Virus record (IMG/VR): IMGVR_UViG_2541047868_000004
Origin: a virus
Lineage: Duplodnaviria; Heunggongvirae; Uroviricota; Caudoviricetes
Reading direction: 5' to 3' (one strand)
DNA length: 39,543 bases
In this document: positions 30,894 to 31,953 of the stretch, one piece after another
How the letters are laid out: each line of letters opens with the position of its first letter
How positions within the stretch are numbered: the first letter of the stretch is position 1
Notes under the pieces: generated by a model
The model's input: the letters and a program-made list of their open reading frames with translations, nothing else
What the model was told of the DNA's origin: nothing
Databases searched by the model: none
Position numbers and translations under genes: made by a program

Positions 30894-31217
30894 ATGGATG
30901 CACAAACACGCCGCCGCGAACGTCGCGCAGAGAAACAGGCTCAATGGAAAGCAGCAAATCCCCTGTTGGTTGGGGTAAGCGCAAAACCAGTTAACCGCCC
31001 TATTCTCTCGCTGAATCGCAAACCGAAATCACGAGTAGAAAGCGCACTAAATCCGATAGACCTTACAGTGCTGGCTGAATACCACAAACAGATTGAAAGC
31101 AACCTGCAACGTATTGAGCGCAAGAATCAGCGCACATGGTACAGCAAGCCTGGCGAACGCGGCATAACATGCAGAGGACGCCAGAAAATTAAAGGTAAAT
31201 CTATATCACTTATTTAG
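30894..31217 (+). CDS. N: Antiterminator N (lambda-type)
   Basis: 107 aa from ATG 30894: [22 protein letters not shown]…, essentially lambda N (arginine-rich motif); ORF-track entry starts upstream at 30762. Confidence 0.9.
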
Positions 31218-31704
31218 AAAATGCAGATTTAGGGAACAGATAGGAGGCGTTACACCTATGGCATCTCATCCTATGGTTAGAAGGTGGTGCAAATCCTTCG
31301 TATTGAAGTATGGATTTCACAGAAGATTCATAGCATTGAGCGCAAAGATAGTGCATTGGCTGACCGGTATTTGCCGATTTTTTGAGACGATAAACCACCG
31401 TAGCAACAGTAGGTGTATACATCTCATAGTTTTTCTTTTCCTCTTCCCACTTAGAGGCTCGATTTATCTTTTCTTCAAGCTCAATGATCTTGTCCTTAGA
31501 AATCATCAAAAGCTCATTAAGTGACATTTGCTGCTGTTGGGCATCCATGAGCTTATCGACAAGTTCGTATGTTTTTTCTTTTACTGAGTAGTCTATTTGC
31601 ATTTTCTGGATTTCCTTTACTGCGCCAACAGCACTCATCAGAGCACCTCCGGCACCAGAAACTGCATCTGTAATCCTACTTATTATTCCTTTTTCATCAG
31701 ACAT
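31210..31704 (-). CDS. Hypothetical coiled-coil protein with C-terminal CxxC…CxxC zinc ribbon, antisense to the pL operon (moron)
   Basis: ATG 31704 (MSDEKGII…) with SD; C-terminal HYLCAQCYE…RCHRCN; ORF track begins at a GTG (31713); opposite strand to flanking early genes. Confidence 0.55.
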
Positions 31705-31914
31705 ATAAATCACTCTCTTACTGTAGGGGTAAGAGGATTTTACTATTTTTCTCGCTGTAGGGGTACACGAGAACCACCGAGCCTGATGTGGTTAAAAGAC
31801 AGGCATACTAATAAACACTGCACTGTGTATTCATTCCAACGAGTGAATACACGGAGCAATGTCGCTCGTAACTAAACAGGAGCCGACTTGTTCTGATTAT
31901 TGGAAATCTTCTTT

Positions 31915-31941
31915 GCCCTCTAATGTGAGGGCGATTTTTTT
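31915..31941 (+). terminator. Intrinsic terminator (tL1-like) in early-left operon
   Basis: GCCCTCTAATGTGAGGGC followed by GATTTTTTT. Confidence 0.75.
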
Positions 31942-31953
31942 GACGGAGGAATT

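What the first reader, a model, noticed from the sequence alone, without database searches (positions are those of the whole stretch)
31210..31953. Antisense zinc-ribbon gene cassette between N and the recombination module, with repeats in its promoter region
The 164-aa ORF (31210..31704, minus strand) runs against the pL operon, a typical moron arrangement. It has an N-terminal coiled-coil region and a C-terminal CxxC…CxxC zinc ribbon that I do not recognise as any well-known lambda or P22 protein. Its upstream region carries two direct repeats CTGTAGGGGTA (31721..31731 and 31755..31765) and a perfect 9-bp inverted repeat GTGTATTCA-N10-TGAATACAC (31825..31852), so it may have its own regulation. 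A candidate lysogen-expressed exclusion or defence gene.
Basis: partly seen in the sequence, partly recalled or inferred. Interest (0 to 1): 0.65.

Follow-up and report, generated by a model that had tools for sequence, protein, structure and literature searches.

The report
Known Rip1 antiphage gene, sieB slot
The antisense gene after N is Rip1, a prophage defence protein published and structurally solved in 2026 that turns an invading phage's ring-shaped packaging proteins into a lethal membrane pore; here it sits in the classical sieB slot behind the sieB promoter, so the finding is real but already explained.

Summary
Every coordinate in the finding is correct. The 164-aa ORF (31210..31704, minus) differs at one residue (Y96H) from phage HK446 Rip1, "ring interacting pore 1". 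That protein was solved by cryo-EM bound to the T6 small terminase (PDB 9OOX) and described by Patel et al., Nature 2026, as a one-protein abortive-infection defence.

Two points go beyond the finding:
- **Position and promoter.** The gene occupies the slot where lambda and P22 carry sieB, convergent with N. It is preceded by the same conserved promoter block, whose start site is annotated in P22.
- **Direct repeats.** By alignment to P22, the distal copy overlaps the -35 part of that promoter and the proximal copy sits at +1. Their 34-bp spacing is kept in front of at least five alternative cassettes.

The 9-bp inverted repeat is not specific to rip1. It is the core of a larger hairpin in a conserved pL-operon segment just upstream of terminator tL2A. 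The same sequence occurs in lambda and Sf6, which lack rip1.

Pfam, NCBIfam and PADLOC do not name the protein. PHROGs places it in phrog_1244 (function unknown), and RefSeq calls it hypothetical.

The parts
31210..31704 (-). rip1 coding sequence, 164 aa: N-terminal amphipathic Gly/Ala-rich helix, long helix, and C-terminal four-cysteine beta domain
   Evidence: ORF. 163/164 residues identical to PDB 9OOX 'ring interacting pore 1 (Rip1)' of HK446, E=1.4e-105. The AF2 model matches 9oox_M at Foldseek E=2e-17, TM 0.85 normalised to the target. phrog_1244, E=4e-53.
31713..31719 (-). Likely ribosome-binding site AAGAGAG, 8 nt upstream of the ATG
   Evidence: Read directly from the sequence. The PDB protein starts with the same MSDEKG, which supports the ATG at 31704 rather than the GTG at 31713.
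31737..31767 (-). sieB-type promoter. The -10 is TAAAAT at 31742..31737, with a weak -35 region TGTACC/TACCCC. The inferred transcription start is 31730.
   Evidence: Aligns column for column with the annotated P22 sieB promoter (NC_002371 29690..29720), and the P22 'sieB RNA start site' 29727 maps to window 31730. The -10 hexamer varies as TAAACT, TAAAAT or TATAAT among cassette types at the same position. The simple sigma-70 scan did not call it because the -35 is poor.
31721..31731 (.). Proximal direct repeat CTGTAGGGGTA (TACCCCTACAG on the gene strand), lying at +1..+10 of the inferred rip1 mRNA
   Evidence: The core CCCCTACAG sits at the same offset in almost all of the 116 promoter copies with a downstream ORF, although the sequence on both sides differs between cassette types.
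31755..31765 (.). Distal direct repeat CTGTAGGGGTA, overlapping the -35 part of the promoter, 34 bp from the proximal copy
   Evidence: Lies within the block shared with lambda, P22, HK620 and HK446.
31781..31804 (.). Conserved inverted repeat GCCTG-N14-CAGGC just upstream of the -35 region; function unknown
   Evidence: Invariant in the five-phage alignment. One IMG/VR variant has GCCGGG...CCCGGC, which keeps the symmetry.
31815..31862 (+). It belongs to the conserved pL-operon 'boundary sequence' and is not specific to rip1.
   Evidence: Sequence identical in lambda, Sf6 and HK446. The homologous Sf6 stretch is annotated 'bsq4; boundary sequence'.
31913..31941 (+). Intrinsic terminator of the pL operon, homologous to lambda tL2A (stem 31913..31934 followed by a T run)
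   Evidence: Terminator scan, fold at -14.2 kcal/mol with z=-4.5, and the Sf6 annotation 'homology to phage lambda; tL2A' on the aligned sequence.
30894..31217 (+). Antiterminator gene N, convergent with rip1 and overlapping it by 8 bp. No terminator separates the two genes.
   Evidence: Pfam N36 E=2.5e-26; sequence; no terminator-like site between the two genes in the scan.

Best explanation
The ORF is rip1, a single-protein abortive-infection defence carried by this P22-like prophage in the slot where lambda and P22 carry sieB.

Shown by others for the near-identical HK446 protein and its Pseudomonas homologue: Rip1 alone is harmless. When a superinfecting phage makes its ring-shaped packaging oligomers (the small terminase in E. 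coli phages, the portal in Pseudomonas phages), twelve Rip1 monomers assemble around the ring through their C-terminal halves. Their N-terminal amphipathic helices then form a pore. The pore breaches the inner membrane and kills the cell before progeny are completed.

Inferred here:
- rip1 is transcribed from the conserved sieB-type promoter (-10 at 31737..31742), starting at about 31730.
- It is translated from the ATG at 31704.
- During the prophage's own lytic growth, N-antiterminated pL transcription runs head-on through rip1, because no terminator separates N and rip1. This should lower Rip1 expression.
For: Identity: 163/164 residues identical to PDB 9OOX 'ring interacting pore 1 (Rip1)', the HK446 protein in complex with T6 small terminase. 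HK446 gp37 lies in the same place, antisense directly after N.

Mechanism as reported: the review PMC13434031 summarises Patel et al. 2026, Nature 651:1060. It reports that Rip1 is not toxic alone, that escape mutants map to the portal or small terminase, that 12 Rip1 surround an 11-mer terminase ring, that the N-terminal part forms an amphipathic helix, that liposomes leak dye, and that homologues are mostly in prophages. Rip1 is also cited as a small-terminase sensor in bioRxiv 10.64898/2026.04.30.721860 and in a meeting report.

Architecture: the AF2 model has helices at 7-34 and 39-90 and a beta domain at 93-158. Residues 7-30 are the most hydrophobic and amphipathic stretch but fall below a transmembrane threshold (maximum Kyte-Doolittle 19-residue mean 1.28). 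The four cysteines are invariant and conserved in DMS3-25.

Promoter: the region aligns to the P22 sieB promoter and annotated RNA start. The same promoter block precedes a 53%-identical homologue in the phage vB_EcoM-606R2.

Context: homologues lie against the flanking operon in HK446, HK620, DMS3, vB_EcoM-611R5 and RcWaterboi.

Family size: 2962 clusters at 50% identity with E<=0.001.
Against: - Nothing was measured for this allele in this prophage.
- The primary paper is not in the held library, so the mechanism rests on a review, two citing papers and the PDB entry title.
- Expression in the lysogen is inferred from promoter homology only. The -35 is poor and the simple sigma-70 scan did not call the promoter.
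- It is unknown whether the prophage's own small terminase (18370..18810) or portal (14758..16956) triggers Rip1.
- The proposed self-protection by convergent pL transcription is untested.
Confidence: 0.9

Rival explanations
1. It is a SieB-type superinfection exclusion protein: a divergent member of the membrane-protein family that normally fills this slot, working like P22 or lambda SieB with Esc and the sas antisense RNA for self-immunity.
For: Same slot, orientation and promoter as lambda and P22 sieB. HK620 hkaP, a 27%-identical homologue in the same slot, was annotated 'putative superinfection exclusion protein'.
Against: No sequence similarity to lambda SieB (BLASTP E=9.4). SieB proteins have hydrophobic segments with Kyte-Doolittle 19-residue means up to 1.73 and 3.01, whereas this protein and HkaP have none at or above 1.6. 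The protein is nearly identical to a solved protein of different architecture. No promoter-like site was found on the plus strand inside the gene that could give a sas-like RNA.
Confidence: 0.02
2. It is a phage housekeeping or regulatory protein that binds the phage's own terminase or portal ring to modulate packaging or lysis timing, and defence is a side effect.
For: It binds small-terminase rings (PDB 9OOX title). In the DMS3/D3112-like Pseudomonas phages it lies next to the large terminase gene and appears in 31 Pseudomonas phage records.
Against: It is transcribed against the packaging or early operon in every context examined. In lambdoid phages it is one of several interchangeable cassettes, and most relatives have sieB instead, so it is dispensable. 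The complete gene is in only 96 of 5426 complete E. coli genomes. The literature reports a defence phenotype from expression and deletion analyses.
Confidence: 0.04
3. On the repeats only: the two CTGTAGGGGTA copies and the inverted repeats are conserved because these segments are recent recombination 'boundary sequences' shared among lambdoid phages. They have no regulatory role for rip1.
For: The distal repeat and the 31815..31862 hairpin lie in blocks that are nearly identical across lambda, P22, Sf6, HK620 and HK446. Sf6 annotates the latter as a boundary sequence. Identity at this level carries no information about selection.
Against: The proximal repeat is an island. Its core is kept at a fixed 34-bp spacing while both flanks differ among the lambda-sieB, P22-sieB, rip1/hkaP and a further membrane-protein cassette. 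It coincides with the annotated P22 transcription start.
Confidence: 0.3

Closest known systems
Rip1 (ring interacting pore 1) of Escherichia phage HK446, gp37; PDB 9OOX; Patel et al. 2026, Nature 651:1060
   Same: 163/164 residues identical. Same position (antisense, directly after N), same upstream promoter block and same 5' untranslated region.
   Different: One substitution: Y96 here, H96 in HK446. The carrier here is a P22-like podovirus prophage closest to vB_EcoP-720R6, whereas HK446 is classified in Hendrixvirinae. The Rip1 proteins of vB_EcoP-720R6 and ev099 are 100% identical to this one.
Rip1 homologues of Pseudomonas transposable phages (DMS3-25, D3112 orf25, and the JBD30 and MP38 homologues)
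   Same: About 30% identity over 145 residues, the same helix plus four-cysteine architecture, and antisense to the flanking operon.
   Different: Located next to the large terminase gene inside the late region. The reported escape mutations in Pseudomonas phages map to the portal rather than the small terminase. No sieB-type promoter block was seen there.
HK620 HkaP (also in HK629 and HK630)
   Same: Same slot, same promoter and near-identical 5' untranslated region, same length (164 aa), and CxxC...CxxC.
   Different: Only 27% identical, so it is a second, deeply divergent Rip1-family allele in the same slot. In HK620 a small gene, hkaQ, lies between it and N.
SieB of lambda and P22 (Ranade & Poteete 1993)
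   Same: Same locus, same orientation against pL, and a homologous promoter with the same repeat pair. From established knowledge, it is also an abortive-infection function expressed by the prophage.
   Different: Unrelated sequence. SieB has hydrophobic membrane segments and Rip1 has none. SieB has the Esc/sas self-immunity device, for which no counterpart was found here.
Other defences that sense phage packaging proteins (Avs1-3 for large terminase; TerI for small terminase)
   Same: The trigger is a conserved late morphogenesis protein.
   Different: Avs proteins are large STAND NTPases with separate effector domains. Rip1 is a 164-aa protein that is both sensor and effector.

Membership tests
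Rip1 (ring interacting pore 1) | Sequence homology to the characterised, structurally solved Rip1 | tested here: met
   phmmer against PDB 9oox_L: E=1.4e-105, 163/164 identical over residues 3-164. 99.4% identity to HK446 by tblastn.
Rip1 (ring interacting pore 1) | Architecture: N-terminal amphipathic helix, long helix, and a C-terminal domain that contacts the ring | tested here: met
   The AF2 model (mean pLDDT 69) has helices at 7-34 and 39-90 and a beta domain at 93-158. It superposes on 9oox_M with TM 0.85 normalised to the target. Hydrophobic moment peaks at 0.42 for residues 7-24, and there is no transmembrane-grade segment.
Rip1 (ring interacting pore 1) | Four conserved cysteines (CxxC...CxxC) in the C-terminal domain | tested here: met
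   C121, C124, C148 and C151 are invariant in 20 sequences and aligned in DMS3-25. Zinc binding itself was not tested. The Pfam zinc-ribbon hit is below threshold (E=0.087).
Rip1 (ring interacting pore 1) | Prophage-encoded, with its own promoter, oriented against the surrounding lytic operon | tested here: met
   Convergent with N in a P22-like prophage. The promoter is homologous to the P22 sieB promoter.
Rip1 (ring interacting pore 1) | Activated by ring-shaped small terminase or portal oligomers; forms a membrane pore; protects by abortive infection | not testable with these tools
   Known only from the literature for the HK446 and Pseudomonas proteins.
SieB superinfection exclusion | Sequence homology to lambda or P22 SieB | tested here: not met
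   BLASTP against lambda SieB gives E=9.4. tblastn of the ORF against all phages did not return lambda or P22.
SieB superinfection exclusion | Hydrophobic membrane segment(s) | tested here: not met
   Maximum Kyte-Doolittle 19-residue mean is 1.28 for this protein, against 1.73 for lambda SieB and 3.01 for P22 SieB.
SieB superinfection exclusion | Location after N/24 against pL, behind the sieB promoter | tested here: met
   This is a shared locus and not evidence of homology between the proteins.
SieB superinfection exclusion | Internal in-frame Esc product and sas antisense RNA for self-immunity | tested here: inconclusive
   No promoter-like site on the plus strand inside the gene in a simple scan, and no Rfam match. 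Internal starts were not examined experimentally.

The most novel reading that the evidence does not exclude
The sieB promoter block could be a portable, regulated expression platform. The block comprises the TACCCCTACAG pair at about -35 and +1, kept 34 bp apart, and the upstream GCCTG-N14-CAGGC symmetry. Lambdoid phages, and at least one other phage (vB_EcoM-606R2), would swap unrelated abortive-infection cassettes behind it: three SieB-like types and two deeply divergent Rip1 alleles. On this reading the repeats bind an unidentified factor, or form RNA hairpins in the convergent pL transcript, and so switch the cassette off during the prophage's own lytic cycle. That would be a general self-immunity device, of which P22 sas/Esc is one special case.
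Probability: 0.3. Interest if true: 0.45.

Novelty: already known. Interest (0 to 1): 0.2.

Why it matters
For the gene itself the result settles annotation. A protein labelled 'hypothetical' in about 2% of complete E. coli genomes (96 of 5426) is Rip1, a defence with a solved structure. Pfam, NCBIfam and PADLOC do not name it, and PHROGs lists its family as function unknown.

The part that may be new is the locus logic. One conserved promoter, with a conserved repeat pair at -35 and +1, serves interchangeable abortive-infection genes directly after N. Convergent pL transcription is an obvious candidate for how the prophage avoids triggering its own defence. That idea is testable with simple promoter fusions.

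Tried and rejected
- **Family libraries.** Pfam, NCBIfam and PADLOC gave only sub-threshold noise for the ORF. PHROGs gave phrog_1244 with no function.
- **Large protein search.** It returned only 'hypothetical protein' names and no Pfam domains.
- **Literature.** Searches for 'hkaP' and 'phrog_1244' found nothing relevant. The primary Rip1 paper is not held under its DOI or PubMed id, and no preprint of it was found.
- **Rfam.** Nothing above threshold in 30400..32400.
- **SieB homology.** Rejected.
- **The 9-bp inverted repeat as a rip1 operator.** Rejected. The identical sequence occurs in Sf6, which has no antisense cassette, and downstream of ral in lambda.
- **ORF 31859..32098 (plus strand, 79 aa), which starts in that hairpin.** I read it as not a gene. 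In the aligned lambda sequence, by my own reading, the same frame stops after 28 codons because the terminator T-run is one base shorter. It also overlaps the 31954..32370 ORF.
- **Hairpin at the proximal repeat as part of the rip1 leader.** Rejected. With the start at 31730, the 5' arm of CTCTTAC-TGTAGGG-GTAAGAG is not transcribed, and the 29-nt leader is unstructured. The hairpin exists only in plus-strand (pL) RNA.
- **Lambda tL1.** I could not locate it from the annotations available.

Full report
**Observation.** The sequence is as described. A 164-codon ORF runs on the minus strand from the ATG at 31704 to the stop at 31210..31212. It is convergent with N (30894..31217; Pfam N36 E=2.5e-26) and overlaps it by 8 bp. 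N is the first gene of the plus-strand pL operon in this window. That operon follows a cI-like repressor (29530..30216) and a 104-aa ORF in the rex position. CTGTAGGGGTA occurs at 31721..31731 and 31755..31765 and nowhere else in the 39.5-kb window, even with one mismatch allowed (mean chance expectation 0.21; 4 of 100 shuffles gave two or more). The 9-bp inverted repeat at 31825..31852 is present and is the core of a longer imperfect repeat, 31815..31836 with 31841..31862.

**What the protein is.** Pfam, NCBIfam and PADLOC gave nothing significant. PHROGs placed the protein in phrog_1244, function unknown. The large protein search returned only 'hypothetical protein'.

An AlphaFold2 model built on a 20-sequence alignment has a mean pLDDT of 69. 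It shows helices at 7-34 and 39-90 and a beta domain at 93-158. Searched against the PDB, it matched chains of entry 9OOX, 'Cryo-EM structure of the Escherichia phage HK446 Rip1 in complex with the Enterobacteria phage T6 small terminase' (Foldseek E=2e-17). A sequence search of the PDB confirmed the match: 'ring interacting pore 1 (Rip1)', 164 aa, E=1.4e-105, with Y96H as the only difference. HK446 gp37 lies in the same place, antisense directly after N. The Rip1 proteins of vB_EcoP-720R6 and ev099 are 100% identical to the window's.

**What Rip1 does.** This comes from the literature and was not tested here. The review PMC13434031 summarises Patel et al. 2026, Nature 651:1060 (reference):
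- Rip1 was found in a Pseudomonas aeruginosa prophage between the terminase subunit genes, and it is not toxic alone.
- Phage escape mutations map to the portal in Pseudomonas phages and to the small terminase in E. coli phages.
- Cryo-EM shows 12 Rip1 monomers around an 11-mer small-terminase ring. The C-terminal half contacts the ring, and the N-terminal part forms an amphipathic helix.
- The complex releases dye from liposomes and makes holes in cells. The outcome is premature lysis, that is, abortive infection.

Two further sources cite Rip1 as a small-terminase sensor. The primary paper is not in the held library.

My own analyses agree with this architecture:
- Residues 7-30 are the most hydrophobic and amphipathic stretch, but they stay below a transmembrane threshold.
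- The four cysteines are invariant.
- DMS3-25, which lies antisense next to the DMS3 large terminase gene, is 30% identical over 145 residues and keeps both CxxC motifs.
- A profile search finds 2962 clusters at 50% identity (E<=0.001), so the family is large.

**The locus.** In lambda, the gene directly after N on the opposite strand is sieB (34482..35036). In P22, sieB lies in the same place after gene 24. Rip1 shows no similarity to SieB (E=9.4) and lacks SieB's hydrophobic segments. It is therefore an unrelated cassette in the sieB slot.

The upstream region, however, is homologous. Window 31716..31812 aligns with the regions upstream of lambda sieB, P22 sieB, HK620 hkaP and HK446 rip1. 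The P22 record annotates a sieB promoter (29690..29720) and a sieB RNA start site (29727). Transferred through the alignment, these give:
- a promoter at window 31737..31767 on the minus strand,
- a -10 of TAAAAT at 31742..31737,
- a start at 31730,
- a 26-nt leader with AAGAGAG 8 nt before the ATG.

The simple sigma-70 scan did not call this promoter because the -35 is poor.

**The direct repeats.** On the gene strand the repeat reads TACCCCTACAG. The distal copy overlaps the -35 part of the promoter. The proximal copy begins one base before the inferred start.

To see how general this is, I scanned IMG/VR for the exact 21-mer GTGTACCCCTACAGCGAGAAA. Together with the reference phages and the window this gave 125 promoter copies, 116 of them with a downstream ORF:

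| Downstream ORF | Copies |
|---|---|
| P22-type SieB | 59 |
| Lambda SieB | 26 |
| Rip1 (>=90% identity to this one) | 16 |
| HkaP (27%-identical Rip1 relative) | 8 |
| A further 177-184-aa hydrophobic protein | 6 |
| Other | 1 |

In almost all copies the second CCCCTACAG lies at the same offset, which gives the 34-bp spacing. The -10 region and the leader on either side of it differ between cassette types. The -10 hexamer changes among TAAACT, TAAAAT and TATAAT at a fixed position. The proximal repeat is thus an island of conservation at the transcription start, which argues for a function, although I cannot say what that function is.

In plus-strand (pL) RNA both copies sit in hairpins. In the rip1 mRNA the leader is unstructured. 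The promoter block also precedes a 53%-identical Rip1 homologue in the phage vB_EcoM-606R2, so promoter and gene can travel together.

**The inverted repeat.** It is the core of a 48-nt hairpin (-24.9 kcal/mol, z=-5.9). The segment containing it is identical in lambda, Sf6 and HK446 and runs into the terminator homologous to lambda tL2A (31913..31941). Sf6 annotates this stretch as boundary sequence bsq4, and Sf6 has no antisense gene in the slot. In lambda the segment lies downstream of ral. In this window and in HK446 and HK620, ral is absent and the segment abuts the sieB-type promoter block. The inverted repeat is therefore a feature of the pL operon's conserved linker and not a rip1-specific control element.

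**How it most likely works here.**
- Shown by others: the sensor-and-pore mechanism.
- Inferred by homology: transcription from the sieB-type promoter in the lysogen.
- My inference, untested: no terminator separates N and rip1, so N-antiterminated pL transcription must cross rip1 head-on after induction. This is a plausible way for the prophage to lower Rip1 before its own small terminase (18370..18810) and portal (14758..16956) accumulate.

**Prevalence and annotation.** The complete gene is present in 96 of 5426 complete E. coli genomes and is annotated 'hypothetical protein'. The window as a whole is a P22-like prophage closest to vB_EcoP-720R6 and CUS-3.

**Verdict.** The gene is already known (Rip1, published and solved in 2026), so interest is low. 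The residual open point is the shared sieB-type promoter with its conserved repeat pair serving interchangeable abortive-infection cassettes.

Noticed in passing
window 30213..30527 (+), with terminator 30539..30555: A 104-aa ORF starts 4 bp before the end of the cI-like repressor gene, in the position lambda uses for rexAB, and is followed by a strong intrinsic terminator. It begins with a hydrophobic stretch (FIPGIVVAVVIICFIWAKL) and belongs to phrog_10450, function unknown. It is a second candidate lysogen-expressed gene.
   Followed up: partly
window 31781..31804: The inverted repeat GCCTG-N14-CAGGC lies just upstream of the -35 region of the sieB-type promoter and is invariant in lambda, P22, HK620 and HK446. 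One IMG/VR variant reads GCCGGG...CCCGGC, which keeps the symmetry through changes on both arms. It may be a factor-binding site for a promoter with a poor -35.
   Followed up: partly
IMG/VR loci L032, L058, L076, L085, L104, L127 (downstream of the sieB-type promoter): A 177-184-aa hydrophobic protein (MPNWIEAVIAYLKQNTSLRFNM...) fills the same slot and gave no BLASTP hit at E<=1e-5 to lambda SieB, P22 SieB, Rip1 or HkaP. Its promoter has a consensus TATAAT -10. It is either a further cassette type or a very divergent SieB.
   Followed up: no
window 30722..30736: The scan flags GCCCTTCTTCAGGGC followed by TTAATTTTTA as terminator-like on the minus strand. From my own knowledge of lambda nutL, its complement GCCCTGAAGAAGGGC is the boxB hairpin. 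It lies where a rip1 transcript that had read antisense through N would arrive, so boxB might also end that transcript.
   Followed up: no
window 31714..31736 (+): On the plus strand the proximal repeat forms a 9-pair hairpin followed by ATTTTACTATTTTT, a weak terminator-like element in the pL direction at the 5' end of rip1. Comparable hairpins with different stems appear in the P22-sieB and third cassette types, but not clearly in lambda.
   Followed up: partly
window 31954..32370 (+): A 138-aa ORF lies immediately after tL2A, in the position of lambda ea10 and Sf6 gene 33. It matches phrog_8967 over its full length (E=3e-87), function unknown, with no Pfam, NCBIfam or PADLOC match.
   Followed up: partly
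window 3884..4303 (-) and 4408..4962 (+): Two ORFs of unknown function (phrog_6823 and phrog_6067) lie between the tailspike gene and the DNA-injection genes, roughly where P22 has sieA and the immI region. The 184-aa one runs against the late operon. It may be another moron slot.
   Followed up: no
window 33175..34086 and 34064..34552 (+): The recombination module is a 303-aa ORF that I read as RecT-like from its translation alone (not scanned against any family library), followed by a Mu Gam-like end-protection protein (phrog_253, E=8e-54). This differs from lambda's bet/gam and P22's erf/abc.
   Followed up: no
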